Virus record (IMG/VR): IMGVR_UViG_3300021062_000016
Location: 1-61,788 of that record
Strand: one strand, 5' to 3'
DNA from: a virus
Lineage: Duplodnaviria; Caudoviricetes
Length of the DNA: 61,788 bases
Part shown: in pieces, positions 1-61,788 of the stretch
Layout of the letters: every line of letters begins with the position of its first letter
How positions within the stretch are numbered: position 1 is the first letter of the stretch
Program-made: the position numbers and the translations under genes
Notes under the pieces: generated by a model
What the model saw: only the letters and a program-made list of their open reading frames with translations
Told to the model about the DNA's origin: nothing
Database searches by the model: none

Positions 1-203
1 GCCCGTAGGAGCGGGCATAGCAGACGCTTGCGAAGCTCAATGAGGTCCGGCGGCATCCGGTCGTAAAGCTTGCACCATTCGGCCATTGTTTCTTCCGGGG
101 CATCCGGGGCGAGCGCAACGACAACATCGTCTATGCGCCAGAACAACCGCTCCTCGGAGGTGCGACCGCGCATGATCCGAGCCTCGGCGTCAGTCAATTC
201 CAT
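1..203 (-). CDS. Hypothetical protein spanning the circular join (MELTDAEARI...; stop at 61640-61642)
   Basis: ATG at 203 with purine-rich upstream (GGAAGGGATAGG); frame is open through the repeat and ends in TPAA-stop in the right-hand copy. Confidence 0.6.
   Translation of the reverse strand, partial: MELTDAEARIMRGRTSEERLFWRIDDVVVALAPDAPEETMAEWCKLYDRMPPDLIELRKRLLCPLLR
20..145. repeat. Terminal direct repeat, left copy (126 bp; probably assembly overlap)
   Basis: Identical to 61663-61788. Confidence 0.95.
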
Positions 204-327
204 TGCCTATCCCTTCCTTTCCTACCAGCGCCCTCAAGGGCGCCCTCTACTGAACCTGTCCCCCGTTTGTATACGTTTGGGGGACATCCCCCGGTCATCT
301 TCTCGGCCCTTGCGGGCCGTAATGGGG

Positions 328-444
328 TCATGGCGCGAAGCTCCCGCGACAAATGGGACGGCGACGGCTTTCAACTCCCCACACGCGCCCGCATTTTAGG
401 CAACGCCAAATCCCGCAAGCCTTTTCTTTCCACCAAGTGGACAC
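328..444 (-). CDS. Small Cys-rich hypothetical protein (38 aa, CLKC)
   Basis: GTG start with GAGGAGG upstream; MSTWWKEKACGIWRCLKCGRVWG... Confidence 0.35.
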   Translation of the reverse strand: MSTWWKEKACGIWRCLKCGRVWGVESRRRPICRGSFAP

Positions 445-464
445 CTATCCATCCCTCCTCACCG

Positions 465-654
465 GGAGTCGTGTGGATGACAACGGAGCCGGGCGGCGCG
501 CTACCAGACTGCGCCACGACACTTGCGTGTCGGCCGGATTTGAACCGGCGCAATGCTTGGGCATGACCCAAACACCCCGAGATGCGATGGGGCGCGACCC
601 CGCCACAGTTGCTCGGCTCCGCCATCGGCGTTCCGTTGTCATCTACACAACTCC
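465..654 (-). ncRNA. Circularly permuted tRNA-like RNA (YrlA/Y-RNA-like topology)
   Basis: Minus strand: T arm GCCGG-UUCAAAU-CCGGC, acceptor CGACAC-GCAA-GUGUCG, D arm GCGC-AGUCUGGUA-GCGC, enclosed by a 23-bp terminal stem (465-487/632-654). Confidence 0.7.
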
Positions 655-1038
655 GTCACAGCCCCTCCCCCAGCATGGGAGGGATGACTCATGGATGGCG
701 GGGCTGTCGCCGGGCTTACGCCCGGTAAGGGGCTGCCAATGGGTCGGTTCGGCAAAGGTGCCCGGATTGATCTTTGTGCTGTACCCCTCGCGGTCCCAGT
801 ACTCCCGGTCCCCGTCGCCGTTATCGACCCACAGGGAGACGTTCTCGCCTTTCTCCCCCTCGCGCTTGGTCCGGCAGTAGATGCGCTCAGGCATCGTCGC
901 CACGGGCTGCCAGCCCTCAGAAAGTGCGACACACGGGGCCGGATTCTCCTGGCCCGCTGCGGTCGATTTGGGGCCGGTGAGGGCGTCTAAGCCCTTGGCC
1001 TGTCTATTTGTGGAAGCCCTGCCGGGGTCGCCACTCAT
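643..1038 (-). CDS. DUF551-like protein; reading frame crosses attP, start uncertain
   Basis: WQPVATMP...EPTHWQPL motifs typical of DUF551. Confidence 0.55.
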   Translation of the reverse strand: MSGDPGRASTNRQAKGLDALTGPKSTAAGQENPAPCVALSEGWQPVATMPERIYCRTKREGEKGENVSLWVDNGDGDREYWDREGYSTKINPGTFAEPTHWQPLTGRKPGDSPAIHESSLPCWGRGCDGVV

Positions 1039-1096
1039 CGAAATAACCCTTTATTATCAACGGGTGCGACACATGGCGCGGGCCATGGTGCGACAC
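924..1096 (+). other. attP: core AGCCCTGCCGGGGTCGCCA (1015-1033) resembling a tRNA 3' end (tRNA-Arg-like), with arm-type repeats GTGCGACAC at 924, 1064, 1088
   Basis: T-stem/acceptor/CCA-like core directly downstream of the integrase operon; three identical 9-mers on both sides of the core. Confidence 0.75.
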
Positions 1097-1112
1097 CGAT
1101 GTTCACTTTTCG

Positions 1113-1604
1113 TCACAGACGCACCCCGTGGATTGCGTGTCCCAAGGCGTCGGCCGCGGTCCTTATCGAAGCCTCGATATTCTCAAGCGTGGTGGCGAAC
1201 CACTCCCCCGCTCGTCGTGTTGCCGCCATCGCTTCGTGAGAGGCGGCCTCGATCTCCCGAGCGAAGACCATGTTCGCCACAGAGAAAGCCCGGTGAATCT
1301 CAAGCTTGCGCGGGTTGCCGTTCTGAAGGTTCCGCAAACGGCGCTCGACGTTGCGCGCAATGCCGACCTTGAAGGGACCATTCCTCCCGCCGATGCAGTA
1401 GACGTAAGCGCCGCGGCCTAGGCTTGGACGCTTCGCTGGTTGCAATTCGCCGCGCACAAACATCACGTGCAGGGCCTCGAACTCTGGCGTGCCCGGCTCA
1501 TGGCGGATGCGAATGCGCTGCTGCCCACGCTTGCGAAAATACAGCCGCTCATTGCCGTGGCGGTCGGTGTCGTGGGTCAAATATTTGTAGTTACGCTCGG
1601 CCAC
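1113..1604 (-). CDS. GIY-YIG (T5orf172-like) nuclease with integrase-like N-terminal domain
   Basis: YVYCIG..FKVGIA..RRLRNLQNGNP..E..H..GEWF; GTG at 1604 preceded by AAGGAGG; N-terminus aligns with the integrase N-terminus. Confidence 0.85.
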   Translation of the reverse strand: MAERNYKYLTHDTDRHGNERLYFRKRGQQRIRIRHEPGTPEFEALHVMFVRGELQPAKRPSLGRGAYVYCIGGRNGPFKVGIARNVERRLRNLQNGNPRKLEIHRAFSVANMVFAREIEAASHEAMAATRRAGEWFATTLENIEASIRTAADALGHAIHGVRL

Positions 1605-2640
1605 GCTTGGCCTCCTTGGGGGTTTGATCCAACAGTTTCGCCGCTTCCCCGGCCAGGCGTTTGCGGTCTGCCCTGCGGGTGTAGCTCGTTGCCTGCCCCG
1701 GTGAGGTCCATCCGAACAGCGCCATGAGCTGGCGATCTGACGCGCCTTCGTCGGCCGCAATCGTCGCCCCGGCTTTGCGGAGACCGTGAGCGGAGCAGTG
1801 AGTAAGCCCCGCCTCGTTGCACCGCTCGCGGAACCAGTTGCCAAACCCGGCGGGCGTGAAGGGCTTCCCAAAGGAGGTCAGGAGGTAATGCATCTTGCCG
1901 CGGTGAAGGTTTAGGACCGCCCGAAGGCTTGGCAGGATGGGAAGGTCGCGCGCCTTCAGTTGCTGGCTGTCGCCCTTTTTCTCGATCAGCCTCAGCCACC
2001 CGTCGCCGGCCTCCAGTTGCCGGCCAAGGCCAACCACGTCGGATCGGCGCACTCCCAGGTAAAGGAGCAGGGCCATTGCCAAGCCAGCCTTCGTGTGTGC
2101 GGGATGCCTCTCGCGGAACTGCTCGATCTCCGCAACCGTCCATGTGTGGTGCCCGTCGCTGGGGGCCTTGATCTTCGCTAGATCACGGGCGGGATTGTGC
2201 TTCATGTGCCCCGCTTCGACCGCCCAACCGAACATCACGCGAAGGGCTTTCAGGAGGTTATTGGCAGCGTGGGGAAAGCCAGCCTTCTCGTCTCTGATCT
2301 TGCGGACGTACTTTGGCTCCAGGTCATGGATCTGACCGCCACCCCACGTGGGAAGCGTGGCCTCGATCATGGAGCGGCGGATTTTCTGAGTAGCGCCGTC
2401 AAGGCGCTTAAATTCCGGGCTCTTGAAATACTCCATGGCGAGCCAACGGTAGGTGCCTGGGACAATCCTCGCCGCGGAAGGCGGTAAGGGGCGAGCAGCC
2501 AGGGCAGCCTTGTACTCGGTCATGAAGGCGTCGGTTCCGGGCGTCTCGCGCATCCTGATCCGCTGCCGGCCTCGCTTGCGGAAGTACACCCGCACGTTGC
2601 CGTGGCGGTCGGGTTCCTCGGACAGGTACTTGAGCTTCAT
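1591..2640 (-). CDS. int: Tyrosine integrase
   Basis: GVRRSD, HGLRK, LFGW...Y catalytic motifs. Confidence 0.95.
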   Translation of the reverse strand: MKLKYLSEEPDRHGNVRVYFRKRGRQRIRMRETPGTDAFMTEYKAALAARPLPPSAARIVPGTYRWLAMEYFKSPEFKRLDGATQKIRRSMIEATLPTWGGGQIHDLEPKYVRKIRDEKAGFPHAANNLLKALRVMFGWAVEAGHMKHNPARDLAKIKAPSDGHHTWTVAEIEQFRERHPAHTKAGLAMALLLYLGVRRSDVVGLGRQLEAGDGWLRLIEKKGDSQQLKARDLPILPSLRAVLNLHRGKMHYLLTSFGKPFTPAGFGNWFRERCNEAGLTHCSAHGLRKAGATIAADEGASDRQLMALFGWTSPGQATSYTRRADRKRLAGEAAKLLDQTPKEAKRGRA

Positions 2641-2942
2641 TTCCCCGCTGCCGTCCTTAAGGATGATTCGCATATGGCCTCCCAGGAATTGCCCCCGCCG
2701 CTATCAGGCAACGCCTCAAAGGCCAGTGTCAACTTACGGACGGACCATACCGACCGCCCGTCGATCTTCTTGGGTCCGGGCATACGCCCGTCCTCCACCA
2801 TTTCTAGGAACTTGGTGAGCGAAACCCCAATAAAGGCAGCCGCTTCCTCTCGGGAAATGCCGGCGGGAGGTAGGCTCTTGGGCAATACGTCGCCCTTCGG
2901 CCGGCGGCCATCCTGCGGAACGAGCTTCAGGGGTTGTGTCAT
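2637..2942 (-). CDS. Excisionase / AlpA-like HTH protein
   Basis: SREEAAAFIGVS..FLEMVEDGRMP..KKIDGRSVW; directly upstream of int. Confidence 0.8.
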   Translation of the reverse strand: MTQPLKLVPQDGRRPKGDVLPKSLPPAGISREEAAAFIGVSLTKFLEMVEDGRMPGPKKIDGRSVWSVRKLTLAFEALPDSGGGNSWEAICESSLRTAAGK

Positions 2943-3032
2943 TCTATCCCCACCTGAGGAGGGAGGAATGGGGGCGCTGTTGAAGCGCGACGCTTATGCG
3001 TCGTAAGGGCTTGGCAATGGGTGCGGTCGGGG

Positions 3033-3605
3033 TCATGCCGCCACCTTCATCGCGTCGATGTTGCACTGGTGGACGGTGAAGGTCGGGGCGACGACTTCTG
3101 CGTTGGCCGCCCACGCGCCTTCGCCGTGCAGCGACTCCCACAGTCGCTTGAACAGCCGCCACGGTGCGACGCCTTCCTCAGGGGTCACGCCTTCAGCGAG
3201 CGCGTCGATCCCGTCGATGTCATTAAGCCGCTCGATCTTGGTGGCCTTCACCACCAGCGTCAGGCGCGACGCCCAGCGCGGCATGTGGATGGAGGGTATG
3301 CCCTTGGCGTAATGAGACGAGCCACGCACGCTCGATGCCGCGGAATCATCCGCCGTGTATGTCCAGTTCAACTCAGCATCGCGTTTAAGTGGCTCGAAGT
3401 CCTCGTCGCGGTTTGGGTAGAGAAATAAGTTCTCCCGCACCCAAAGCCGGTCGCCCGGCTTCACCTTCTGCCAGGGCGATGGCGTGACGATGCACGGCGC
3501 TGCTCCCTTTATGGGCCGCCACGCCAGCCGCCGCGTCATCGTCTTGCGGCCTTCGAGCAGAGCCCGAACCATCGACGCGGAAAAGATGATTGGAATATCG
3601 GTCAC
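3033..3605 (-). CDS. ASCH/PUA-like phage protein
   Basis: IIFSASMVRALLEGRKTMTRR, GDRLWVRE, PSIHMPRWASR. Confidence 0.75.
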   Translation of the reverse strand: MTDIPIIFSASMVRALLEGRKTMTRRLAWRPIKGAAPCIVTPSPWQKVKPGDRLWVRENLFLYPNRDEDFEPLKRDAELNWTYTADDSAASSVRGSSHYAKGIPSIHMPRWASRLTLVVKATKIERLNDIDGIDALAEGVTPEEGVAPWRLFKRLWESLHGEGAWAANAEVVAPTFTVHQCNIDAMKVAA

Positions 3606-3657
3606 TTCCCCATCTCCTCAGGCGCGCAAGCGCCGCTACTTAGGATGTAGTTGAGGG

Positions 3658-3945
3658 TCATGGGGGCTGCGCCGATGCTTGCGCATCGGAAGGAAGAAGG
3701 CCTGGCAACGAGTGTGCAAACGGGCGGTCCTCGTTCTTTGCCAGCGCTGCGGTCCAATTCGCAGCCAATACCTTGGCGTCTCCGGTCGGCACTGCAAACA
3801 GCCTCACACCGTTGAACGTGCCCTCGACGTTGCAATTGAGCGTTTTCGCGAGCGCTACCATCTCACCGCACGCATCCTCAATCCTCGATCCGACCGCGAT
3901 GTCGATATCGAGCGTCAGTGTTTTGACCCGATTGCCGTAGACCAT
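3658..3945 (-). CDS. Hypothetical protein
   Basis: ORF in operon orientation. Confidence 0.6.
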   Translation of the reverse strand: MVYGNRVKTLTLDIDIAVGSRIEDACGEMVALAKTLNCNVEGTFNGVRLFAVPTGDAKVLAANWTAALAKNEDRPFAHSLPGLLPSDAQASAQPP

Positions 3946-4003
3946 TTCCCAATCCCTTTGTCTGTTACAGCGGCGCAAGCCGCCCTACTTACCTACTTAC
4001 CAA

Positions 4004-4501
4004 TCACGTAGAAGCGGAGACTGTTATCTTCTCCCCTCGACACACGCGCTCGAAGGCGTCGAGGACGACGGACTTGGGGACGGCCTCCGGTGGATACTTG
4101 GCAAACTCGGGTATGAGATCCCTTATCCGGTCTGGTTTCACTTCCTGCTCCAATCTTGAGAAAAACGGAGCGTTGCCCCAGAAGATTAGTGACCTCATCT
4201 CGCCATCCGGTGGAGACATCGCGAGCAGGCGGCTAAATTCATCGTCCGGATCAGAGTCTCTCGCGATGGAGAGATGGCCGGCGATGCAGCAGAAACACGC
4301 CGCTTTTGGCGAACGAACGCTGTCGAGAACACCCTCATCAGTCGTTCGGGCGTAGTAGTAGGGAAAATAGAACGTCTCCGCCGGGTACTGCTTCAACAGG
4401 TCCAACGCCTCCTGTTGATCGCGCGTAAGCGCGGGCTTCATTTCCTTCGGTGGGAACTCAATCACTTGATGTTCTGGTGATGTAGGGGAGAGGGGTTTCA
4501 T
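4004..4501 (-). CDS. Hypothetical protein (CFCCIAGH motif)
   Basis: 165-aa ORF in operon orientation. Confidence 0.65.
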   Translation of the reverse strand: MKPLSPTSPEHQVIEFPPKEMKPALTRDQQEALDLLKQYPAETFYFPYYYARTTDEGVLDSVRSPKAACFCCIAGHLSIARDSDPDDEFSRLLAMSPPDGEMRSLIFWGNAPFFSRLEQEVKPDRIRDLIPEFAKYPPEAVPKSVVLDAFERVCRGEKITVSAST

Positions 4502-4540
4502 GACCTGTGAATCCTTTATTGATGTTGGGCTTTGCGGGGC

Positions 4541-4951
4541 TTACGCCCCTTGCTTGGCAATGAATTTGTGCAGGTCGGGTTGAGCGACGACGTACTTGCT
4601 GCGCTTTGTGATTTTGTTGCCGTGCTTCGCGATGAGCGCCTTAGCCTTCTGACCTGCTAGCGCGAAGTCATCGCTGTCGCCCTGGGCGTGGCGAGCAACG
4701 ATGTCATCCCAATCCGCGAGCGCGTCGATTTCTGTGGCGCAGGCGACCGCGCGTTCCAGGTCGTCCCAATTTGATGGGAGGGCAAGCCCGGTTTGGTGGT
4801 GTGTAATGCGCCAGTGGTCGCCAGATTTACCGACGCCGCGATGGACGCAGAGCCGACCGACCATGATGCACGGCTCAGATGTCTTCAGGGTGCCATCGGA
4901 ACGCGCTATGTAGACTGTGGCGTCAAACTTCGCGTCCTCCTCACGCGCCAT
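4541..4951 (-). CDS. Hypothetical protein
   Basis: ORF; WRITHHQTG motif. Confidence 0.65.
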   Translation of the reverse strand: MAREEDAKFDATVYIARSDGTLKTSEPCIMVGRLCVHRGVGKSGDHWRITHHQTGLALPSNWDDLERAVACATEIDALADWDDIVARHAQGDSDDFALAGQKAKALIAKHGNKITKRSKYVVAQPDLHKFIAKQGA

Positions 4952-4990
4952 AAGGCGCGCCCCTTGGCCCTCATTCCCCATGATCCTCTC

Positions 4991-5176
4991 CTATGGTGTG
5001 GGTGGCTCTGGTAGCGGCATCCAATGGGTGGGGTCTGATACGGGGTCTCCTTCCTCGTCGATCCACCCATCGCCGCGCCATTCAGTCAGCCCGTAGACCT
5101 TACTGCGAGCCCAATAGCCGAGAATCTCAGTCCCATCCTTCGGCGCAGTCGAAATCGGTTTCCATCCCCCGCTCAT
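4991..5176 (-). CDS. DUF551 family protein
   Basis: WKPISTAPKDGTEIL...PTHWMPLPEPP. Confidence 0.85.
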   Translation of the reverse strand: MSGGWKPISTAPKDGTEILGYWARSKVYGLTEWRGDGWIDEEGDPVSDPTHWMPLPEPPTP

Positions 5177-5595
5177 TCTGTAGAGCCTCCCTGCTTCTCC
5201 TGGAGCTTTGCTTCGTAGCGTTTGCGAGCCGGGGATATCTCCCACAGCCTCTTGGCTATCGCCTTCATGTCGATGCCCCATTCCTTCTCGAAAGCAGGCT
5301 CGCCAATTTGGTGCTGGCGCTTATGCGCCAGGGAGCACAGGGGAATGGTGAATGAATCGGACGGCTTCAATGATGTCCCGCCATCGGTCCCGGTGCGGAC
5401 GTGGGCGGCTTCGATGATCCCCTCGCATTCGTGCTGGTAGCCGTTCCACCCGGCGTCACCCGTGCAGGCCCTTGGCTCTCTCCCTGCCAAACAGCACACA
5501 AACGAGCGAATGAACTTTAGGTGAGACGCACACCGTATCTGTGACGGCTCCCTCACATTCATCCGGGGGCGCTGGCGACGTTTGGGCAGGTTCAT
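5173..5595 (-). CDS. DUF968-like putative HNH nuclease
   Basis: HLKFIRSFVCC, AAHVR, KPSD..IPLC..H..QH. Confidence 0.75.
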   Translation of the reverse strand: MNLPKRRQRPRMNVREPSQIRCASHLKFIRSFVCCLAGREPRACTGDAGWNGYQHECEGIIEAAHVRTGTDGGTSLKPSDSFTIPLCSLAHKRQHQIGEPAFEKEWGIDMKAIAKRLWEISPARKRYEAKLQEKQGGSTE

Positions 5596-6161
5596 GCGCG
5601 GCCTCTGTAGTCGAACGACGCCAACAAGCGGTCCCAATTTTCGCCATGGGTGCTGTTCGGGAAATCCAGTTGCTTCTTGCTGGTGATGCCGAGAACCTCT
5701 TTCAGTGTGAGGTCCGCAGCTTCAGGCGACAAACATTTGCCGTCGATGTAGTGACGGTCCCATATCTTCGGGTACGTCTCGGCAAGCCAGATTTGGAAGC
5801 CCTCGTCTTGAAGCTTGATTGCAGCCTGACGGCTTCTCGGTAGATCCCGGAAAGGTGTGCGGGGCTTATCCTGCGCTTTGCCTTCCGCGTCTTGGGGCTC
5901 GGGTAGCGGGTCATGAGCGAGCGCAGACCCATTCTCTACAGGCGCGCAAGCGCCTGCCCATTTCTTGAACGCATCCTCAGATATTCTGGTAATCGCAACG
6001 TACTTCTTAGCGCCGTCTAGCGACGGCGGAACACCCAAGACAACTTGGTTCGCCTCCCACAGCTCTAGGGGCATCTCTACGGTGACGCGCGCCACAGCGA
6101 GCTTGGTCAGGTACTCGACCTTCGTGTAATAGCCGCCGAGGACTGCGGGACGGTCGGACAC
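5592..6161 (-). CDS. Hypothetical protein
   Basis: 189-aa ORF coupled to neighbours. Confidence 0.7.
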   Translation of the reverse strand: MSDRPAVLGGYYTKVEYLTKLAVARVTVEMPLELWEANQVVLGVPPSLDGAKKYVAITRISEDAFKKWAGACAPVENGSALAHDPLPEPQDAEGKAQDKPRTPFRDLPRSRQAAIKLQDEGFQIWLAETYPKIWDRHYIDGKCLSPEAADLTLKEVLGITSKKQLDFPNSTHGENWDRLLASFDYRGRA

Positions 6162-6164
6162 GGG

Positions 6165-6587
6165 TTAGCGCCACTCCGGGCTGAATGGGATTGGATCGTC
6201 GTCCATGTGGGCGGGGCCTTGGCCCTTAGGGGCCGTGCTCGGCTTCCCATCCAGCAGAATCAACTCCGCACCGAAGCCCTGTAGCACCACCTCGGTCGAG
6301 TATTTGTCGTTGCCGTCCTTGTCCTGCCACTTCCGGGTTTGAAGCTGACCGGCCAGGTACACCTTCGATCCTTTGCGGGTGTACTTCTCCGCAATCTCAG
6401 CCAAAGGCCCGAAGATGACGACGCGGTGAAACTCCGTCCGCTCCTTCTTCTCGCCCGTGGCTTTGTCCTTCCAACTTTCGGAAGTCGCCACGGAGACGTT
6501 GGCGACCTTGCCGCCGTTCTGCATTGTCCTAACCTCGGGGTCTCTTCCGAGATTGCCGATCAGCATGACGCGATTGAGAGATGCCAT
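6165..6587 (-). CDS. ssb: Single-stranded DNA-binding protein
   Basis: [15 protein letters not shown]...DDDPIPF. Confidence 0.95.
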
Positions 6588-6592
6588 TGGTC

Positions 6593-7333
6593 CTATTCCG
6601 CTGCGTGTTGAATTGGTGCCTTCGCCTGTTCGCATTTCGAGAGCCAGGCTTCCATTGCCTTGGGGTTGCCCAGTTGCGTAGCAACCTTGAGGGCTTCCCC
6701 CCTCAATCCCGTTCCATCGGGGCCGGTCCACTCATTCGTGAAGATGGTCGCCACTTTGATGAACAGCGGCTTTCTGTCGTTCAGGAGGGCTAAAAGCTGC
6801 TCCCAATCAGAGCAGGCGTGGATTTCACGCATGACCTCGCGGACTTCCACCTTCACAGCAGAGATGCCGGGAGGGTTCTTGCCCTGGGTTGGGTCTGGGA
6901 AGTGTTCCGGGGCGCGGTCGCCGTTCGTCCGGTGCGTGCCGTTCTGCACAGCCGCGTTGCCATCATCGTCCTCAGCAATCACCCCAAGGGCTGCGGAGAG
7001 GGCGTACCGCCGCCCATACGAGATACCGGAGCCGACGCCGTGAGCGTCACGCTTGGAGAGCGGGACCACGATGGGGCCGAAGTCGATGAACTGGCCGGAC
7101 TCGTGCGCGATCCTGGTAACGACGGAGACGCCATCGGGCGTAAGCCCGACATCCTGGAGAGCAACCAGCTTGTTGTCCGATAGGGGTTTGCGAACGGCCT
7201 CCCACACCGAGGACAGGTCCGCGTACTTAGACTTGAAGTGCGGGTTGGTTGAGTCCTTCACCGCCGGCTGCAGAGCTGCTTGCGCCTTTTGCAGGGCCGC
7301 AAAGAGTTTCTCGGTTGTCTCACTGGTTCGCAT
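6593..7333 (-). CDS. erf: ERF-family ssDNA annealing recombinase
   Basis: [28 protein letters not shown]. Confidence 0.9.
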
Positions 7334-7449
7334 TTACTTCCTCCGTCCTCTTCCTGAGAGCGCGCAAGCGCTCTGCTTCCAACTTGATGGCCCAATAAAG
7401 TCTGATCCGTGTGACGTAGTGCATGGGGGTAGTCGCCGCTTACGCGGCT

Positions 7450-7821
7450 TCAGAAGGGCACAAGGTCCTCTTGGGCGGGCGCGGTCGAGGTCGTGGCCTT
7501 AACCTCGATTTCATCGTTCGTGATTTCGAGACCGCTGGTGCTCTCCAAGTCACGGTGCCGTTGCTGAGCTTCGTGCTCGTACTCGAACGTCTCGTTGACC
7601 TTGAGACCCCGGTACTCGCCGTGGAGGCGCCACACCTTCTTGGTCTCCGGTGCGGCGGGAACGCTGGCGGTCATCGAGTAGGACTCCATGCCGACCCGCA
7701 GCGCATTGCCGTCCTTATCGCGAATGACGACGTTCTTCAGCGAGCGGTCGCAGTAGTCGAGTCCGACCGTGACCCCGGACAACTTGATTTGCTCAGCAGA
7801 CTTGATCGTTTCCCATTTCAT
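7450..7821 (-). CDS. Hypothetical protein
   Basis: ORF with AAGGA RBS; C-terminal DLVPF. Confidence 0.6.
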   Translation of the reverse strand: MKWETIKSAEQIKLSGVTVGLDYCDRSLKNVVIRDKDGNALRVGMESYSMTASVPAAPETKKVWRLHGEYRGLKVNETFEYEHEAQQRHRDLESTSGLEITNDEIEVKATTSTAPAQEDLVPF

Positions 7822-7907
7822 TTTCGTTCCTTTCAGAAACAGCCCATAACAACCAGCCCAGATGCTCACCAACCCGAGGGTATCGAGGATGAAGGCCTTG
7901 GCGTCTG

Positions 7908-8201
7908 TCATGCGACATCCCGGTATCCAAGGATGTCGGCCAAGTGCTCGCGCTGTTCCTCAGGCGTCTTGTGCGAGAGTATCCAAGCGCGGGCCTTTTC
8001 CATCGACGCGGCGAAGGTGGGAGCCTCGAAGTCTTGTTTTGTCGCGTCGCCGAGCGTAATGCGGCAGCAAGCGTTTGGTTTGACGCCGGGCGTATAGTGC
8101 ATCCGATCGACAGAAACGTAGCTAGTCAGGCGGATGCCGCGCGCCATGCACTCTTGCCGAGCCCACTTCACGAAGTCGTCAATCTGCTGTTCCATTGTCA
8201 T
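7908..8201 (-). CDS. Hypothetical protein
   Basis: ORF in operon. Confidence 0.6.
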   Translation of the reverse strand: MTMEQQIDDFVKWARQECMARGIRLTSYVSVDRMHYTPGVKPNACCRITLGDATKQDFEAPTFAASMEKARAWILSHKTPEEQREHLADILGYRDVA

Positions 8202-8204
8202 GCC

Positions 8205-8489
8205 CTACTCCGCCGCCGCTACTTCACGCGCGTAAGCGCGCTTTCCATCCCTATAATCGTTGTCGTCCTCCAGATCCCTCATCCACCCTCTGACTGAATC
8301 CCCCAGGATGTCGTGCTCATGGGAGTTGATGAGGCTGCGGAACTCCTCCATCAGGTCGTCGGGGCTTTGCTTGAGCGTCTTGATTTCCAACAGGGCGCCG
8401 TAGACCTCGACCTTCATTTCCCTGAGATGTCTGGAAATGATTCTCTCTGCTGCGAGTAGGATGGCTTTGTCGTCAGAGGGGAGGTGCAT
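8205..8489 (-). CDS. Hypothetical protein
   Basis: ORF with AAGGAG RBS. Confidence 0.65.
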   Translation of the reverse strand: MHLPSDDKAILLAAERIISRHLREMKVEVYGALLEIKTLKQSPDDLMEEFRSLINSHEHDILGDSVRGWMRDLEDDNDYRDGKRAYAREVAAAE

Positions 8490-8491
8490 CG

Positions 8492-8773
8492 TTAGGCTCC
8501 TTGGGCTTCGCGGCGCTTACGCGCCAGAATGAGCTTGCGGGCCTCGCGCTTGTCCGACTTGCTCAGCGACAAGCCGCGCCGATAGCGGTCGATTAGGCAG
8601 TCCTCGTAGGCGATGCGGTGCTGGTCGAGTTCGTCGGCGGTGAAGGTCGGACCCGGACCCTGATCGACCAGAGCCTGCCGAGCCCCTTCCTTACGCTGCG
8701 TAAGCAGCGCCTCTTGGCCCATCTCTTCCATAATCCACTCTCCCCTTGGTATGTCGCGTGCGGTGATAAGCAT
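8492..8773 (-). CDS. Hypothetical protein
   Basis: ORF in operon; start uncertain. Confidence 0.55.
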   Translation of the reverse strand: MLITARDIPRGEWIMEEMGQEALLTQRKEGARQALVDQGPGPTFTADELDQHRIAYEDCLIDRYRRGLSLSKSDKREARKLILARKRREAQGA

Positions 8774-8778
8774 CTCGC

Positions 8779-8868
8779 TCACTCGTAAAACCCCAACCCC
8801 CACAGAATCTTCGGCCCCCACACGATCAGGGCCATGGCGAGGAGAGCGATGAAGAGGGCGCCTTTCAC
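8779..8868 (-). CDS. Small membrane peptide (29 aa)
   Basis: GTG overlapping upstream stop; hydrophobic LFIALLAMALIVW. Confidence 0.4.
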   Translation of the reverse strand: MKGALFIALLAMALIVWGPKILWGLGFYE

Positions 8869-9269
8869 GGCGCACCGACGATGGCTTTGCGGACGGCGGA
8901 CTCTGCAGTCAGCATCGTTGAGTGCGAAACCTTCAGCACCCAGCCGTCGTGGTCTGACTCCGACCACCGCGCAACGCGCGTGAACATGTCGAGCGCGGCA
9001 AGCAGTTCTGGCGCTCCAGCGATCAGGCGGGCGTTGGCTTCGGCCACGCGGGGGTCGTCGGTATTGCCGCCCTGAACCTTTGCAACGCGGGCAACATCAG
9101 GGCCGTGCACCAGGCAGAAGTGGTCGCCGAAGTTGCTGGACCTGGTGGCGCGCTTAGAAGCCGACCACGGCCCCGGTGTAAACGATGACCCAGCCGCCGT
9201 CGTGGGAGAGGGGCTATGTGCCGGGGGAGTGGCACCGAGGGCGGCTGGGGTTCTCATCGCAGGCTCCAT
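8865..9269 (-). CDS. Conserved phage hypothetical protein, first gene of leftward operon
   Basis: FTPGPW...ANARLIAGAPELLAAL motif common in phages. Confidence 0.7.
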   Translation of the reverse strand: MEPAMRTPAALGATPPAHSPSPTTAAGSSFTPGPWSASKRATRSSNFGDHFCLVHGPDVARVAKVQGGNTDDPRVAEANARLIAGAPELLAALDMFTRVARWSESDHDGWVLKVSHSTMLTAESAVRKAIVGAP

Positions 9270-9287
9270 TCGGTAGGAACGGAGCCA

Positions 9288-9339
9288 ACTATACGCACGC
9301 GTATAAACCGACGCAAGCGAAATTATGCGTTAACGTATA
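9288..9339 (-). promoter_or_regulatory. PL-like promoter and two operators
   Basis: TTGCGT-17-TATAGT on minus strand; palindromes TATACG-N4-CGTATA at 9290-9305 and 9324-9339 (one mismatch). Confidence 0.8.
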
Positions 9340-9342
9340 AAA

Positions 9343-10026
9343 TTATTCTGGTGCGTATTTCCCGGTGACGCGGGCGGTGATCCGGAGCTCTTCGTCTTCC
9401 GGCACGGCTTCAAGGAGAATGGGCGCTTGGTGATCGGGATGGTCGGACCTAGGCCAGAGATAATGCCGGCCGTCCTGAAGGACATATTCTTTGATTGTGG
9501 CCTCGACCTGCCCAGTCTTATCCCTGCGCTGGCAGACCACTTTCTCGCCGGGCAGGGGGTCCCGGGCGAGATCCAAGTAAGAGACAACAATGACGAACGA
9601 ACCGTCCGGATAATAGCGATTCATGGACGGGCCCTTTACTTGCAGAGCCCTGCGGGGGATGCCCGGAAACCTATTGTCTTCAGGCACTTGGATAGCAAAT
9701 TGCTGGTCGAACGGCCATTCTATGGCTTCCTGCCAAACGCCTGCCTCAACCGCACCTACAACTGGCACGGAATTAAGGTTAACACCCGATATTAATGTCG
9801 GGAAGCCCAGAAACTCGTCCACGGAACGGCAACCTGCGATGGTGGCAAGCGTTCGTAGCGCCGGATATTCCGGCTCGTCCGTCCCCGCCTCCCACCGGCT
9901 TACCGTCGGTTGAGAGACCTTTAGTTTCGCTGCGAACTGACTTTGATTCAGTTTCAGTTTTTCACGCAACTCGACAACTAGGTCGCGAACTTTTCTCGGC
10001 CGCCTCTGCATCTCCGGATGATGCAT
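9343..10026 (-). CDS. cI: CI-like repressor (XRE HTH + S24 peptidase)
   Basis: QSQFAAKLKVSQPTVSRWE; VKGPSM and ATIK Ser/Lys dyad. Confidence 0.92.
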   Translation of the reverse strand: MHHPEMQRRPRKVRDLVVELREKLKLNQSQFAAKLKVSQPTVSRWEAGTDEPEYPALRTLATIAGCRSVDEFLGFPTLISGVNLNSVPVVGAVEAGVWQEAIEWPFDQQFAIQVPEDNRFPGIPRRALQVKGPSMNRYYPDGSFVIVVSYLDLARDPLPGEKVVCQRRDKTGQVEATIKEYVLQDGRHYLWPRSDHPDHQAPILLEAVPEDEELRITARVTGKYAPE

Positions 10027-10045
10027 GCGACCCTACGGGGCGTCC

Positions 10046-10095
10046 AATACGCATGCGTATTTTTCCTTGCGCGGGTTTATACGTGAGCGTATAAG
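10046..10095 (+). promoter_or_regulatory. PR-like promoter and two operators
   Basis: TTGCGC-17-TATAAG; palindromes at 10046-10061 and 10078-10093; near-identical to PL. Confidence 0.8.
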
Positions 10096-10102
10096 TGAAG
10101 CC

Positions 10103-10327
10103 ATGCACCCGATCCGCCGCTTGCGAACCAAGGTCTTGAAAATCAGCCAGTCCGCCATGGCGGCAGCGGCCAACGTGACGCAGGCGACGGTTTCCCGCTG
10201 GGAAAGCGGTGAATTGGAGCCGTCGCTGTCGGAGCTGCTGGCGATCAAGGCGAGGTACGGCCGGCGCGTGAACCTGAGCGCGCTGCAGGCGAAGGACCAG
10301 GCCGAAATCAAGGCGAGGGCGTCGTGA
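10103..10327 (+). CDS. cro: Cro-like HTH protein
   Basis: SQSAMAAAANVTQATVSRWE; divergent from cI. Confidence 0.85.
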   Translation: MHPIRRLRTKVLKISQSAMAAAANVTQATVSRWESGELEPSLSELLAIKARYGRRVNLSALQAKDQAEIKARAS

Positions 10328-10331
10328 GCGA

Positions 10332-10658
10332 CTACCTCGGATTCACCTGCCGTCGTTCGTGCGACCCACAGGCTGGGTCGTGGCAGACCCACACTTCGAC
10401 GGCACCGTTCTGCTTGGAGCTTTCGAACCGCAGGGTGCGGTTCCCGCATTTGCGACAGACATCGGCCGGCGACTTGCCGCTGAGCAAATCGGCCATCTTC
10501 ACTTCCAGCGCCGCGACCCGCGCATCGAGATTGCCCGTACCCTCGATTGCCGCAATCCGGCGTTCCAGGTCCACGATTCGCTTGACCCACTTCCATGCCC
10601 ATTTCACCGCACCGACGGCGGTTTCGGGGATGTCCGATGGCTGATCCGACTGTGACAT
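10332..10658 (-). CDS. Coiled-coil + zinc-ribbon protein, antisense to the rightward operon
   Basis: Heptad segment, CRKC...CHDPAC. Confidence 0.6.
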   Translation of the reverse strand: MSQSDQPSDIPETAVGAVKWAWKWVKRIVDLERRIAAIEGTGNLDARVAALEVKMADLLSGKSPADVCRKCGNRTLRFESSKQNGAVEVWVCHDPACGSHERRQVNPR

Positions 10659-12280: not shown

Positions 12281-12305
12281 ATCGGGCTTGCGCCCGATTT
12301 TTTTA
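12281..12305 (+). terminator. Intrinsic terminator
   Basis: ATCGGGC-TTGC-GCCCGAT followed by T-run. Confidence 0.65.
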
Positions 12306-15915: not shown

Positions 15916-16235
15916 CCGAGCAGGGCGATTTGCTCTCGTGGTCTTCGCCCGACTCCGACCGGCACGGGCGCACGTTTGACCGTGAACTCGACGGCAAGCG
16001 CCTGAACGGTCAGGCCCTGCGCGTCTATGAGGCGATGATCGACGGGGTCTACCGGACTCTCCGGGAAATCCACGACATCACCGGCGACCCGGAAGCTTCG
16101 ATTTCCAGTCGCTTGCGCGACTTCGACAAACCCGAGATGTCCCAGCTCAACATCTACAAGGACTCCCGCCGCCGCGCGGGCATGGAGAAGCGCGGGGTGT
16201 GGGAATACGCCCTGCTGAGCAGGAGAAAGCCATGA
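15912..16235 (+). CDS. Hypothetical winged-HTH-like protein
   Basis: TLREI..PEASISSRLRDF..WEY. Confidence 0.65.
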   Translation: MTEQGDLLSWSSPDSDRHGRTFDRELDGKRLNGQALRVYEAMIDGVYRTLREIHDITGDPEASISSRLRDFDKPEMSQLNIYKDSRRRAGMEKRGVWEYALLSRRKP

Positions 16236-58821: not shown

Positions 58822-58843
58822 GGGGTGCGGCGCTTAGGTGCCC

Positions 58844-59065: not shown

Positions 59066-59133
59066 TGCCAAGCCTCTTCCTGTTCACGCGCCATAAGGCG
59101 CGTATAACCCCATGATATACGCACTAGCGTATA

Positions 59134-61598: not shown

Positions 61599-61662
61599 GA
61601 TGGAATCCTATATGGGGGTAGTGGGCCAAGGGGCGCGGCTTAGGCCGCTGGGGTCGGGCATC

Positions 61663-61788
61663 GCAGACGCTTGCGAAGCTCAATGAGGTCCGGCGGCATC
61701 CGGTCGTAAAGCTTGCACCATTCGGCCATTGTTTCTTCCGGGGCATCCGGGGCGAGCGCAACGACAACATCGTCTATGCGCCAGAACA
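61663..61788. repeat. Terminal direct repeat, right copy
   Basis: Identical to 20-145. Confidence 0.95.

What the first reader, a model, noticed from the sequence alone, without database searches (positions are those of the whole stretch)
228..8709. Dispersed array of ~23 C-NYAA-G tetraloop hairpins concentrated in the leftward early region
Seen: perfect 5-7 bp GC-rich inverted repeats, all closed by C-G (mostly GC..GC) around a loop reading GCAA, GTAA, ATAA, CTAA or TCAA. They start at 228, 304, 517, 710, 2988, 3621, 3672, 3970, 4420, 4536, 4944, 5314, 5939, 6221, 7134, 7357, 7435, 8227, 8512 and 8694, and across the circular join at 59087, 61635 and 58829 (one G-T). Stems differ in sequence but keep pairing, while the loop is conserved. 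About half have the NYAA loop on each strand, and many lie inside ORFs (ssb, erf, DUF968). None was found in int or the GIY-YIG gene, and a non-exhaustive scan of 9.3-58 kb found only two (12281, 37663). A rough base-composition estimate predicts under one per 12 kb. Inference: strand-independence argues for a DNA-level structural signal (cruciform or ssDNA hairpin) rather than RNA terminators. Candidate roles are marks for recombination or gene shuffling, binding or decoy sites, or hairpin promoters loosely like the C-GNA-G hairpins of N4 early promoters. I do not recognise this as a described element.
Basis: partly seen in the sequence, partly recalled or inferred. Interest (0 to 1): 0.88.

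Follow-up and report, generated by a model that had tools for sequence, protein, structure and literature searches.

The report
Polar hairpin cassettes at phage gene boundaries
A soil phage marks the starts and ends of its accessory early genes with small GC-rich hairpins that always carry the same kind of four-base loop, and two related phages have gained, lost or swapped genes at these marks.

Summary
All 23 listed hairpins exist. The 13-kb leftward gene block has 22 perfect C-NYAA-G / C-TTRN-G hairpins, against 0.18 expected from shuffles. The other 48.6 kb has 4, not 2.

Orientation follows gene polarity:
- Hairpins whose mRNA loop reads UURN sit beside start codons, either abutting the Shine-Dalgarno sequence or about 10-25 nt inside the ORF.
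- Hairpins whose mRNA loop reads NYAA sit at stop codons, twice with the TAA stop in the loop.
- Fisher p = 0.005 for the window, and 6e-5 with relatives included.

Ten hairpins lie inside coding sequence, against 0.66 in synonymous-codon shuffles.

About 1.8 Mb of related phage and prophage DNA lacks the array. Two metagenome contigs (L181, L180) carry it. There, 35-80-nt cassettes around the hairpins are 97-100% identical to the window while adjoining genes are unrelated. Stems show compensatory changes, and one 227-nt gene unit is gained or lost between two cassette copies.

Best reading: polar, structured gene-boundary cassettes that act on the polycistronic RNA and serve as homology patches for module shuffling. 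This resembles the PeSLs of T4-type phages, but without their promoter. The RNA-level role is inferred, not shown.

The parts
8694..8709 (-). Start-side hairpin (mRNA loop UUAC), nt 23-38 of ORF 8731..8492. It is the core of the 58-nt cassette 8674-8731.
   Evidence: The cassette is 58/58 identical to L181 4609-4666, while the ORF bodies downstream are unrelated.
8512..8525 (-). Stop-side hairpin (mRNA loop GUAA), 20 nt before the stop of ORF 8731..8492 and 23 nt before the ATG at 8489.
   Evidence: It shares its right flank with the 4536 cassette. The stem differs from 4536 by one double (compensatory) change.
8227..8240 (-). Start-side hairpin (UUAC), 26 nt before the start at 8201 and inside the last codons of ORF 8489..8205.
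7435..7448 (-). Stop-side hairpin (GUAA), 2 nt after the stop of ORF 7911..7450.
7357..7374 (-). Start-side hairpin (UUGC), 24 nt before the erf start and followed by a GGAGGAAG Shine-Dalgarno sequence.
   Evidence: 59/60 nt around it are identical in L181 (5924-5983), although that erf is only 53% identical in protein.
7134..7149 (-). Hairpin inside erf (UUAC), codons 62-67, in a variable surface loop.
   Evidence: no insertion relative to 45 homologues. It is absent at this site in L180 and L181, so it may be lineage-specific or chance.
6221..6234 (-). Stop-side hairpin (CUAA) in the ssb linker, 56 nt before the stop and just upstream of the acidic tail codons.
   Evidence: L181 has the same hairpin (56/57 nt). 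L180's unrelated ssb has a CUAA hairpin with a different stem at the same relative place.
5939..5956 (-). Hairpin inside ORF 6161..5592 (UUGC), in the linker between a variable N-terminal part and a conserved C-terminal domain.
   Evidence: The L181 homologue has a UUAC hairpin in the same linker. 16 nt are identical to the 3621 hairpin.
5314..5331 (-). Hairpin inside the DUF968/HNH-like gene (AUAA), 141 nt before its stop.
4944..4959 (-). Start-side hairpin (UUAU), nt 23-38 of ORF 4981..4541. It is the core of cassette 4932-5001.
   Evidence: 61/62 nt are identical to L181 8802-8863, with unrelated flanks on both sides. 19 nt are identical to the 59086 hairpin. The stem differs from 8694 by two double changes.
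4536..4549 (-). Stop-side hairpin (GUAA) with the TAA stop of ORF 4981..4541 in the loop.
   Evidence: 34/35 nt are identical to L181 5152-5186, where it joins a different upstream ORF to the homologue of ORF 8489.
4420..4433 (-). Start-side hairpin (UUAC), nt 9-22 after the ATG at 4441.
3970..3983 (-). Start-side hairpin (UUGC), 25 nt before the ATG at 3945.
3672..3689 (-). Stop-side hairpin (GCAA), 14 nt before the stop of ORF 3945..3658.
3621..3634 (-). Start-side hairpin (UUGC), directly followed by TGAGGAG and 16 nt before the start at 3605.
2988..3003 (-). Stop-side hairpin (AUAA), between the stop at 3033 and the xis-like start at 2942.
710..725 (-). Hairpin (GUAA on the minus strand) in the tRNA/att region. 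There is no confident gene model here.
517..532 (-). Hairpin (GCAA on the minus strand) formed by the 3' acceptor strand of the tRNA-Pro-like gene and a downstream copy of its 5' strand. Membership in the family is doubtful.
304..319 (-). Hairpin (GCAA on the minus strand) in the att-proximal region.
228..243 (-). Start-side hairpin (UUGA), 25 nt before the ATG at 203, followed by a GGAAAGGAAGGG Shine-Dalgarno tract.
   Evidence: A homologous hairpin-plus-SD-plus-ATG cassette precedes a different gene in L180.
61635..61648 (-). Stop-side hairpin (CUAA) with the TAA stop of the ORF that starts at 203 in the loop.
   Evidence: Its flank resembles the flank of 4944 in inverted orientation.
59086..59103 (-). 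Start-side hairpin (UUAU), 21 nt before the ATG at 59065. An operator-like palindrome lies just upstream at 59115.
58829..58842 (-). Stop-side hairpin (CUAA), 2 nt after the stop at 58844. It is imperfect, with an A.C on the mRNA strand and a G.T on the + strand.
12281..12298 (+). Canonical intrinsic terminator with the same core (7-bp stem, loop UUGC) plus a run of 7 T.
   Evidence: It is the only family-like hairpin with a U tract.

Best explanation
The hairpins are the structured cores of short (about 35-65 nt) gene-boundary cassettes. They lie in the leftward accessory operon of a temperate Bcep22-like podophage. That operon runs from the repressor side through erf, ssb, xis and int, then past attP to 57.9 kb. 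The host is probably a Hyphomicrobiales alphaproteobacterium.

The cassettes are polar and come in two mirror forms.
- Start-side form. The mRNA reads stem, C-UURN-G, stem, then T(G/A)AGGAGG-like purines. It lies 16-26 nt before a start codon, abutting the Shine-Dalgarno sequence. Alternatively it lies about 10-25 nt inside the ORF, as part of a short translated leader shared by unrelated proteins.
- Stop-side form. The mRNA reads stem, C-NYAA-G, stem, mostly the GNRA-type loops GCAA and GUAA, in a C-rich context. It lies on the stop codon or within about 55 nt of it.

Proposed mechanism: on the polycistronic transcript each hairpin folds (about -9 to -14.5 kcal/mol) and punctuates the cistrons. 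The hairpins would protect processed 5' and 3' ends from decay and keep each ribosome-binding site free of neighbouring structure.

The cassettes are almost the only sequence shared among otherwise unrelated small genes. They therefore serve as homology patches, at which the phage's own ERF/SSB annealing system, or the host's recombination, inserts, deletes and replaces genes.

Shown here: the enrichment, the polarity with respect to genes, the use of codon choice to build hairpins, compensatory stem changes, conservation at mosaic junctions, and one cassette-bounded indel.

Inferred only: that RNA is the acting molecule, what the hairpins do to it, and which recombinase is involved.
For: 1. 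Enrichment. 22 hairpins against 0.18 expected in the leftward block. 10 lie inside CDS against 0.66 in 500 synonymous-codon shuffles.

2. Polarity.
- 9 of 11 UURN-type hairpins lie within 26 nt of a start codon. Six are 16-26 nt upstream and three are 8-22 nt inside the ORF.
- 7 of 12 NYAA-type hairpins lie within 30 nt of a stop, and two have the TAA stop in the loop.
- Nearest-boundary table: 9/2 against 1/8, p = 0.0055. With L181 and L180 added: 13/3 against 1/13, p = 5.6e-5.
- Six genes are bracketed by a UURN hairpin at the 5' end and an NYAA hairpin at the 3' end.
- Where both types share one intergenic space (7435/7357 and 3672/3621), the order on the mRNA is NYAA then UURN.

3. Flanks. 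The base after the stem is T in 8 of 11 start-side elements and is followed by SD-like purines. The pair flanking the stem is G..T in 8 of those 11.

4. Restricted to one transcription direction. The equally dense rightward early operon has no such array.

5. Relatives that carry the array.
- L181 has 8 hairpins in 9.1 kb against 0.14 expected. L180 has 2 in 1.6 kb against 0.04.
- Cassettes are 97-100% identical to the window: 58/58, 61/62, 59/60, 34/35 and 56/57 nt.
- Neighbouring genes are unrelated or 76-84% identical.
- 5 of 16 hairpins fall in the 6.9% of positions 2600-9300 that is at least 90% identical to L181 (p = 0.0035).

6. Structure is selected. Homologous cassettes differ by double changes that keep pairing:
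- 4944 against 8694, two pairs.
- 4536 against 8512, one pair.
- The ssb-linker hairpin of the window and L181 against that of L180, with different stems, the same CUAA loop and the same position.

7. Shuffling.
- L181 carries an extra 227-nt unit, a 76-codon ORF, between two copies of a 13-nt leader. Each copy is followed by a TTAC hairpin. The window has one copy.
- One 19-residue leader heads two unrelated ORF bodies.
- L181 hairpin 5163 joins the end of a different ORF to the homologue of ORF 8489.

8. Plausibility of the recombination step. Erf-family recombinases recombine short and diverged homology efficiently (PMC3945230, passages read). PeSL cassettes of T4-type phages behave the same way (PMC2839356, passages read).
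Against: - No transcript data exist, so the RNA-level role is inference. No RNA run holds this phage.
- The loop family is symmetric under reverse complement, which an RNA hairpin that acts only as a barrier does not require.
- UURN loops are not a known stable RNA tetraloop class (recalled knowledge).
- ViennaRNA gives no energy difference between strands. The hairpins fold in 150-nt context on either strand: 20 of 23 on the mRNA strand and 19 of 23 on the antisense strand.
- Flanks are G-rich in the TTRN orientation for both classes. Stop-side elements therefore carry an antisense SD-like tract, twice with a well-spaced ATG, that has no evident RNA-level use.
- The two imperfect members (58829 and L181 about 8845) carry A.C on the mRNA strand and G.T on the other strand.
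- Not all mosaic breakpoints lie at hairpins, for example window 7834, 6907 and 5816.
- The J1 crossover maps to the leader beside the hairpins, not to the stems.
- Gene models are my own, from ORFs, a codon score and partial PHROG/Pfam support. Three hairpins near attP have no gene model.
- The only relatives with the array are two contigs whose names share one prefix.
Confidence: 0.55

Rival explanations
1. DNA-level signal. The palindromes extrude as cruciforms or fold in single-stranded DNA. A structure- and loop-specific protein (recombinase, nuclease, primase or the like) reads them and actively drives cassette exchange or replication events.
For: - The loop family NYAA/TTRN is closed under reverse complement.
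- The conserved core is the 6-8 bp around the loop, while outer stems vary.
- Flanks are G-rich in the TTRN orientation in both classes, so the element has a polarity of its own.
- Some elements share 16-22 nt in inverted orientation. An 11-nt SD-plus-ATG flank of the 59086 element recurs reverse-complemented at 2988 and 4536.
- Imperfect members pair as G.T on the non-mRNA strand.
- Hairpins occur inside ORFs.
- The block encodes ERF, SSB, a DUF968/HNH-like protein and a GIY-YIG nuclease.
Against: - Orientation follows gene polarity (p = 5.6e-5).
- The start-side type abuts Shine-Dalgarno sequences.
- The array is confined to one transcription direction.
- No Y1/HUH transposase was found in the genome (PF01797: 0 matches here, while 6 of 14 control genomes matched). 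PHROG and Pfam scans of 20 left-block proteins found no hairpin-specific enzyme.
- Stems of 5-7 bp are short for cruciform extrusion (established knowledge, recalled).
- The one mapped indel crossover lies in the leader, not in the stem or loop.
Confidence: 0.15
2. Transcriptional punctuation. The hairpins are attenuators or pause sites, or parts of Rho-dependent terminators, in an operon read through by an antitermination system. This would match the stem-loop half of PeSLs or the multiple tL terminators of lambda.
For: - The phage's one canonical intrinsic terminator (12281) has the same core, C-UUGC-G on a 7-bp GC stem.
- In the NYAA orientation every class sits in a C-rich, G-poor context, about 0.35-0.40 C against 0.16-0.22 G over 24 nt. 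This resembles rut sites (the rut comparison is recalled).
- The operon has the layout of a lambdoid pL operon: repressor, erf, ssb, Ea22-like, xis, int.
- PeSL stem-loops are experimentally shown terminators (PMC2839356).
Against: - There are no U tracts. The terminator-like scan found 9 sites in 1-10500 against 10.1 expected. The two that coincide with family hairpins (5939, 4419) are on the antisense strand.
- Half the hairpins present the non-GNRA loop to the sense transcript.
- Several lie just inside ORFs, where translating ribosomes would melt them.
- No N-like or Q-like antiterminator was identified. Not all genes were scanned.
Confidence: 0.12
3. Miniature mobile repeats of the REP or MITE kind, which insert in either orientation and have accumulated in a dispensable region. 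Any function would be secondary.
For: Sub-families share 16-22 identical nt, including in inverted orientation. Both orientations occur. The elements are confined to the accessory region. A GTAG lies next to several stems (228, 3621, 3970, 7435, 61635), as at REP feet (recalled).
Against: - Stems differ in sequence with compensatory changes, so they are not copies.
- The erf-internal hairpin is not an insertion relative to 45 homologues.
- No target duplications were seen and no RAYT/Y1 transposase was found.
- Orientation is tied to gene ends.
- Absent from 19 prophage loci of candidate host relatives, which have 0-1 each.
Confidence: 0.05
4. By-product without function. Quasi-palindrome correction and gene conversion by the phage recombination system create and homogenise small perfect palindromes in a fast-evolving region.
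For: Stems are perfect. Near-identical patches occur within and between genomes. The erf-internal hairpin is not conserved in L180 or L181.
Against: - Specific loop family: 22 against 0.18, while other loops are at expectation.
- Positional and orientation rules.
- The same relative position in two unrelated ssb genes, with different stems.
- Absent from the rightward early operon of the same genome.
Confidence: 0.05

Closest known systems
PeSLs (promoter-early stem-loops) of T4-type phages (Arbiol et al. 2010, PMC2839356, passages read; Comeau et al. 2014, PMC4122927, abstract read)
   Same: Both are short composite regulatory motifs with a GC-rich stem-loop. Both are repeated many times, are confined to the hyperplastic region of small orphan genes, and flank those genes. 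Both mark the places where close relatives differ by insertion, deletion or replacement of genes.
   Different: - A PeSL is a stem-loop plus a consensus sigma-70 early promoter. Here no promoter accompanies the hairpins: 1 promoter-like site in 1-10500 against 2.5 expected, and none next to a hairpin. The partner element is a Shine-Dalgarno sequence and start codon, or a stop codon.
- PeSLs are described as direct repeats. Here two mirror orientations are used, one at gene starts and one at gene ends.
- The loop is a fixed tetraloop family and the stems vary, whereas PeSLs have GGGG...CCCC stems.
- The phage here is a temperate podophage, not a T4-like myovirus.
- Mini-circles have not been tested here.
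Intercistronic stabiliser hairpins of bacterial and phage operons: REP/BIME in E. coli operons, the puf intercistronic hairpins of Rhodobacter, and the C(UUCG)G hairpins between T4 genes (all recalled, not read here)
   Same: These are stable GC-rich hairpins, often with special tetraloops, placed between cistrons of a polycistronic RNA. They are thought to block exonucleases and set segmental mRNA stability.
   Different: Those elements have one orientation relative to transcription. The array here uses both, sorted by gene end. Hairpins also lie inside coding sequence, and the 5' form carries a non-canonical UURN loop.
Integron attC sites (recalled)
   Same: Both are structured recombination sites at gene-cassette boundaries, in which structure is conserved more than sequence.
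   Different: attC sites are 57-141 nt imperfect palindromes with extrahelical bases, are read by an IntI integrase, and occur once per cassette in one orientation. Here the hairpins are 14-18 nt and perfect, and no IntI-type partner is identified.
Hairpin early promoters of phage N4
   Same: Both are small 5-7 bp hairpins upstream of early genes.
   Different: N4 hairpins have 3-nt loops, number three per genome, and need a virion RNA polymerase. Here the loops have 4 nt and there are 23 sites, half of them at gene 3' ends. Pfam found no RNA polymerase domain in the giant virion protein.

Membership tests
PeSL (T4-type promoter-early stem-loop cassette) | Consensus sigma-70-type early promoter adjacent to the stem-loop | tested here: not met
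   1 promoter-like site in 1-10500 (at 1028-1057) against 2.5 +/- 1.5 in shuffles, and none beside a hairpin. The scan uses the E. coli consensus, so an alphaproteobacterial promoter could be missed.
PeSL (T4-type promoter-early stem-loop cassette) | Repeated motif concentrated in the hyperplastic region, flanking orphan genes | tested here: met
   22 of 26 hairpins lie in the 13-kb accessory block. Six genes are bracketed. Several bracketed genes have no family hit.
PeSL (T4-type promoter-early stem-loop cassette) | Indels and replacements between close relatives have their junctions at the motifs | tested here: met
   a 227-nt unit lies between two cassette copies, a chimeric junction sits at L181 hairpin 5163, and 58-62-nt cassettes with unrelated flanks are shared. 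Some breakpoints (7834, 6907, 5816) are not at hairpins.
PeSL (T4-type promoter-early stem-loop cassette) | The stem-loop terminates transcription; mini-circles form by recombination between motifs | not testable with these tools
   Needs reporter assays and inverse PCR. Contig laying showed no alternative joints at hairpins, which is not informative.
Intrinsic (Rho-independent) terminator | GC-rich hairpin followed by a U tract on the transcribed strand | tested here: not met
   9 terminator-like sites against 10.1 expected. None of the 23 has a T run on the mRNA strand. Only 12281 in the right arm qualifies.
N4-type hairpin promoter | 5-7 bp stem with a 3-nt loop, read by a virion-borne RNA polymerase | tested here: not met
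   All loops are 4 nt. Pfam on the 2567-aa virion protein gives only LPD38.
REP / RAYT system or IS200/IS605-type hairpin ends | Conserved repeat sequence plus a Y1 (HUH) transposase that reads it | tested here: not met
   Stems vary. PF01797 has 0 matches in the phage, while 6 of 14 control genomes match. The host genome is unknown and was not tested.
Integron attC | 57-141 nt imperfect palindrome with R/L boxes and extrahelical bases, plus an IntI integrase | tested here: not met
   The hairpins are 14-18 nt and perfect. The only integrase is a phage-type tyrosine integrase next to attP and a tRNA. The IntI-specific features of that integrase were not examined.
boxB / nut antitermination hairpin | One or two sites per operon, with boxA and an N-like protein | tested here: inconclusive
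   23 sites are far too many, and half face the wrong way. No N-like protein was searched for.

The most novel reading that the evidence does not exclude
The hairpins are not merely conserved RNA punctuation that recombination happens to use. They are the dedicated sites of a phage gene-cassette system. A phage protein (ERF/SSB, the DUF968/HNH-like protein, or the GIY-YIG nuclease fused to an integrase arm-binding domain) would recognise the C-TTRN-G hairpin on one DNA strand. Mirror-oriented sites would define the two ends of each cassette. Cassettes would be excised, captured or inverted at these sites. That would be an integron-like mechanism built from 14-18-nt tetraloop hairpins inside a temperate phage.
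Probability: 0.12. Interest if true: 0.88.

Novelty: new variant of a known kind. Interest (0 to 1): 0.62.

Why it matters
Phage genomes are mosaics, but sequence signals that organise the shuffling have been described in very few groups. The main example is the PeSLs of T4-type phages.

This is a second, differently built example, in a temperate alphaproteobacterial-type podophage:
- It has no promoter.
- It uses a fixed tetraloop family on variable, covarying stems.
- It obeys a clear rule that one orientation marks gene starts and the mirror orientation marks gene ends.

If the RNA-level reading is right, it offers compact, portable parts for insulating cistrons: hairpin plus Shine-Dalgarno sequence plus leader, and stop codon inside a hairpin.

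If the DNA-level reading is right, it would be a new cassette-exchange mechanism.

[quoted passage not shown] Neither search returned a description of such an array.

Tried and rejected
Searches for the array elsewhere that came back empty or near empty:
- GenBank phages: no megablast match to 1-9500. blastn of 1-8000 gave only ssb matches at 65-69%.
- 80 ERF-encoding IMG/VR loci, 830 kb: 23 motif hairpins in all.
- Five whole capsid relatives of 59-64 kb and similar G+C: 0-3 each.
- Eight loci with the phrog_874 protein, and the 100%-capsid contig L083: 0.
- 19 prophage loci with the nearest integrases (best Filomicrobium insigne, 48%): 0-1 each.
- 78 of the 80 metagenome ERF loci: 13 hairpins in about 443 kb.
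- Two cassette patterns scanned in IMG/VR: 0 matches each.

Other negative results:
- Rfam: no family in the window.
- The ORFan 7911..7450 has no homologue other than itself among 5.8 billion proteins.
- No RNA holder is listed for the stretch, so expression could not be examined.
- Laying the contigs of the two soil runs that hold the phage showed the same sequence. There were 3 single-base differences, none in a hairpin, and no alternative joints at hairpins. The loose end at 4941 is the other copy of the 19-nt repeat at 59084.

Ideas rejected:
- Loop-loop kissing between the 5' and 3' hairpins of one gene. Only 2 of 6 bracketed genes have fully complementary loops, against about 1.5 expected from loop frequencies (my arithmetic).
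- A long panhandle between the two cassettes of a gene. Complementarity is limited to the 8-nt core.
- Antisense small ORFs starting at the SD-plus-ATG found on the antisense side of 2988, 710 and 4536. By my reading of the sequence, they run only about 7-20 codons.
- A strand difference in hairpin stability: none.

Not seen: supplementary files of the PeSL papers, which may list motif consensus sequences relevant to the comparison.

Full report
THE GENOME

The window is a complete-looking IMG/VR virus record of 61,788 bp. Its ends repeat: 12-145 matches 61655-61788 at 99%.

It has the layout of a temperate Bcep22-like podophage:
- Terminase, portal and capsid at 24-30 kb, and a 2567-aa LPD38 polyvalent protein at 43792-51495.
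- A LexA-like repressor ORF at 9343-10026.
- A leftward, minus-strand block that runs from about 9300 through small orphan genes, erf (7333-6593), ssb, a DUF968/HNH-like gene, a DUF551 gene, a phrog_874 gene, an xis-like gene, int (2673-1591) and a T5orf172 GIY-YIG gene.
- The block then passes a tRNA-Pro-like gene (525-607) and crosses the join to 57899, through an Ea22-like gene and more orphans.

The nearest integrases are in Hyphomicrobiales genomes (best 48%), so the host is probably an alphaproteobacterium. Two soil-metagenome runs hold the phage.

THE OBSERVATION

I scanned for perfect stems of at least 5 bp, a 4-nt loop, a C-G closing pair and a loop of NYAA or TTRN.
- The 13,045-nt leftward block has 22, against 0.18 +/- 0.43 in 300 dinucleotide shuffles (max 2).
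- The other 48,598 nt have 4, against 0.66 expected.
- The excess is confined to this loop family. Hairpins with other loops number 18, close to the 16 expected for all loops.
- The 23rd hairpin, 58829, has one G.T.
- Ten hairpins lie wholly inside my gene models, against 0.66 +/- 0.78 (max 4) in 500 synonymous-codon shuffles. Codon choice, and not only intergenic sequence, builds them.

ORIENTATION IS NOT RANDOM

All long genes of the block are on the minus strand, so I read each hairpin on the mRNA strand.

Eleven have a UURN loop there.
- Six of these lie 16-26 nt upstream of a start codon: 59086, 228, 3621, 3970, 7357 and 8227.
- Three lie 8-22 nt downstream of one: 4420, 4944 and 8694.
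- Two are internal: 5939 and 7134.

Twelve have an NYAA loop on the mRNA.
- Seven lie within 30 nt of a stop codon.
- Two of these have the TAA stop in the loop (4536, 61635), and two begin 2 nt after the stop (7435, 58829).
- The ssb hairpin is 56 nt before the stop, just ahead of the acidic-tail codons.
- One is internal to DUF968.
- Three, in the tRNA/att region, have no gene model.

Scoring each hairpin by its nearest boundary gives 9 start and 2 stop for UURN, against 1 start and 8 stop for NYAA (Fisher p = 0.0055).

Six genes are bracketed by a UURN hairpin at the 5' end and an NYAA hairpin at the 3' end. Where both kinds share an intergenic space (7435/7357 and 3672/3621), NYAA comes first.

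In the TTRN orientation:
- The base after the stem is T in 8 of 11 start-side elements and 6 of 12 stop-side elements.
- It is followed by T(G/A)AGGAGG-like purines, the complement of the 16S rRNA tail. That identification is established knowledge, recalled here.
- Both flanks are G-rich: 0.34-0.40 G and 0.16-0.22 C, against about 0.30 of each in the block.
- The pair next to the perfect stem is G..T in 11 of 22 hairpins and A..C in 2 of 22.

The elements are polar, and their polarity tracks the genes.

A RARE TRAIT, SHARED BY TWO RELATIVES

About 1.8 Mb of related DNA lacks the array (see Tried and rejected).

A metagenome scan with ERF found two contigs that have it.
- L181 is 9,095 nt of a 16.7-kb contig, with ERF 53% identical. 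It has 8 hairpins, against 0.14 in shuffles.
- L180 is 1,555 nt, with ERF 73% identical. It has 2, against 0.04.

The same rule holds in them.
- On the mRNA strand of L181, the TTRN hairpins (4406, 4631, 5944, 7385) lie near starts. 7385 lies in the linker of the ORF-6161 homologue.
- All four NYAA hairpins (5163, 5763, 7127, 8424) lie at or just before stops, and 5163 has the stop in the loop.
- In L180, a TTAG hairpin follows a stop and precedes an SD plus ATG. A CTAA hairpin lies in the ssb linker.
- Pooling all three sequences gives p = 5.6e-5.

MOSAIC JUNCTIONS

blastn of L181 against the window gives a patchwork. Around the hairpins are short islands of near identity:
- 58/58 nt at window 8674-8731.
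- 61/62 nt at the 4944 cassette.
- 59/60 nt upstream of erf.
- 34/35 nt at the 4536 cassette.
- 56/57 nt from the ssb hairpin to the ssb stop.

The adjoining genes are unrelated or 76-84% identical. Five of the 16 hairpins between 2600 and 9300 fall in the 6.9% of that stretch that is at least 90% identical to L181 (p = 0.0035).

Three junctions were read base by base.
1. L181 has two tandem genes that each begin with the same 13-nt leader followed by a TTAC hairpin. The window has one. The difference is a 227-nt unit holding a 76-codon ORF, bounded by the two cassette copies.
2. The 19-residue leader that contains hairpin 8694 heads two unrelated protein bodies (P0002 and P0003). These were the only two proteins returned when ORF 8731..8492 was searched against 5.8 billion proteins.
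3. L181 hairpin 5163 has the left flank of window hairpin 4536 and the right flank of window hairpin 8512. It joins a different upstream ORF to the homologue of ORF 8489.

The hairpin-plus-SD-plus-ATG cassette before the window's ORF at 203 recurs before a different small gene in L180.

Not every breakpoint is at a hairpin. A small membrane ORF conserved in L180 and L181 is fused to an orphan body in the window at 7834, with no hairpin there. Other patch ends (6907, 5816) lie inside genes.

STRUCTURE IS UNDER SELECTION

Cassettes that are alignable through their flanks differ in the stem by changes on both sides that keep pairing:
- 4944 against 8694: two pairs.
- 4536 and its two L181 copies against 8512: one pair.
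- The ssb-linker hairpin: GGCCC/GGGCC in the window and L181, and CGCGGC/GCCGCG in L180's unrelated ssb, with the same CUAA loop and the same place before the acidic tail.

The erf-internal hairpin replaces six codons of a variable loop without any insertion. It is absent in L180 and L181, so it is the weakest member.

Hairpin 517 closes the acceptor stem of a permuted tRNA-like arrangement. It may not belong to the family.

WHAT IT MOST LIKELY IS

The elements are polar boundary cassettes of one leftward transcription unit.

They act on RNA by inference only. The supporting points are the tie to gene ends, the abutting Shine-Dalgarno sequences, the stop codons in loops, the G.U-compatible flanking pair at start-side elements, and the absence of such hairpins from the rightward early operon.

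A hairpin of -9 to -14.5 kcal/mol at each end of a cistron is the arrangement expected for protection of processed ends and for insulating ribosome-binding sites. The intercistronic hairpins of bacterial operons and of T4 work this way (recalled).

The comparative data show directly that the cassettes sit at gene gain, loss and replacement junctions. This is the behaviour described for PeSLs of T4-type phages (PMC2839356, passages read; PMC4122927, abstract read).

An Erf-family recombinase is encoded in the block. Such enzymes recombine short and diverged homology well (PMC3945230, passages read). Its involvement here is inferred.

WHAT REMAINS UNEXPLAINED

The loop family is symmetric under reverse complement. 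Stop-side elements carry, on the antisense strand, the same G-rich and SD-like flanks as start-side elements carry on the sense strand. An 11-nt SD-plus-ATG flank of the 59086 element recurs reverse-complemented at 2988 and 4536.

The simplest account is that stop-side cassettes descend from inverted copies of start-side cassettes, or the reverse. A protein that reads one DNA strand is not excluded. Folding energies do not separate the strands.

No hairpin-reading enzyme was found. There is no Y1 transposase, and PHROG and Pfam scans of 20 left-block proteins found nothing relevant.

KNOWN FAMILIES

- PeSL: not a member, because the defining promoter is absent, but the array behaves like one.
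- Intrinsic terminators: not a member, because there are no U tracts.
- N4 promoters: the loop length is wrong and no virion RNA polymerase was detected.
- REP/RAYT: the stems vary and there is no transposase.
- attC: the size and form are wrong.

Two full-text searches found no description of such an array.

That note is an unchecked lead on other DNA and is not support.

VERDICT

The array is real and highly non-random. The shuffling role is supported by two relatives whose contig names share a prefix. I class it as a new variant of a known kind.

Noticed in passing
window 9290-9305, 10046-10061, 10077-10094 and 59115-59134: Four palindromes of the form TATACG-N4-CGTATA. Three lie in the repressor/cro intergenic zone and look like operators. 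The fourth lies just upstream of hairpin 59086 and the ORF that starts at 59065. This suggests a repressor-controlled promoter far from the immunity region.
   Followed up: no
window 465-654 (minus strand): ARAGORN calls a tRNA-Pro(tgg) at 525-607. Directly after its 3' acceptor strand come GCAA and a second copy of the tRNA 5' strand and D arm.
   Followed up: partly
window 7821-7911; L181 5797-5900; L180 1-68: A small hydrophobic ORF of about 35 codons is conserved in L181 and L180. In the window it is cut at 7834 and fused in frame to the Shine-Dalgarno region and body of an orphan gene with no homologues. The annotated 153-aa ORF may therefore be a fusion, or may really start at the ATG at 7821.
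   Followed up: partly
window 3602-3658, 2944-3036, 194-331 and 7320-7424 (minus strand): Mini-ORFs of 19-45 codons fill the spaces between genes. Their starts overlap the preceding stop (ATGA) in two cases and are preceded by a C-rich tract (CCCCCATGACC) in place of a Shine-Dalgarno sequence. Several contain a hairpin.
   Followed up: no
window 16107-16122, 37663-37676 and 45368-45381: Three family-type hairpins lie inside rightward genes, one of them in the 2567-aa protein. With the terminator at 12281 they make 4, against 0.66 expected. They may be chance or functional.
   Followed up: no
window 12-145 and 61655-61788: A terminal direct repeat of 134 nt at 99% identity, so the record is circularly closed or has a short terminal redundancy.
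   Followed up: no
L083 (IMG/VR contig of 27,525 nt) and the 62,237-nt contig of P0003: A second IMG/VR contig has a capsid gene 100% identical to the window's. The L181-type relative exists as a 62.2-kb contig in another assembly that could not be fetched.
   Followed up: no
window 12268 and 14006; L181 528-654: L181 lacks the two rightward genes at 12345-13974 and the terminator hairpin at 12281. One end of that difference lies 13 nt from the terminator.
   Followed up: partly
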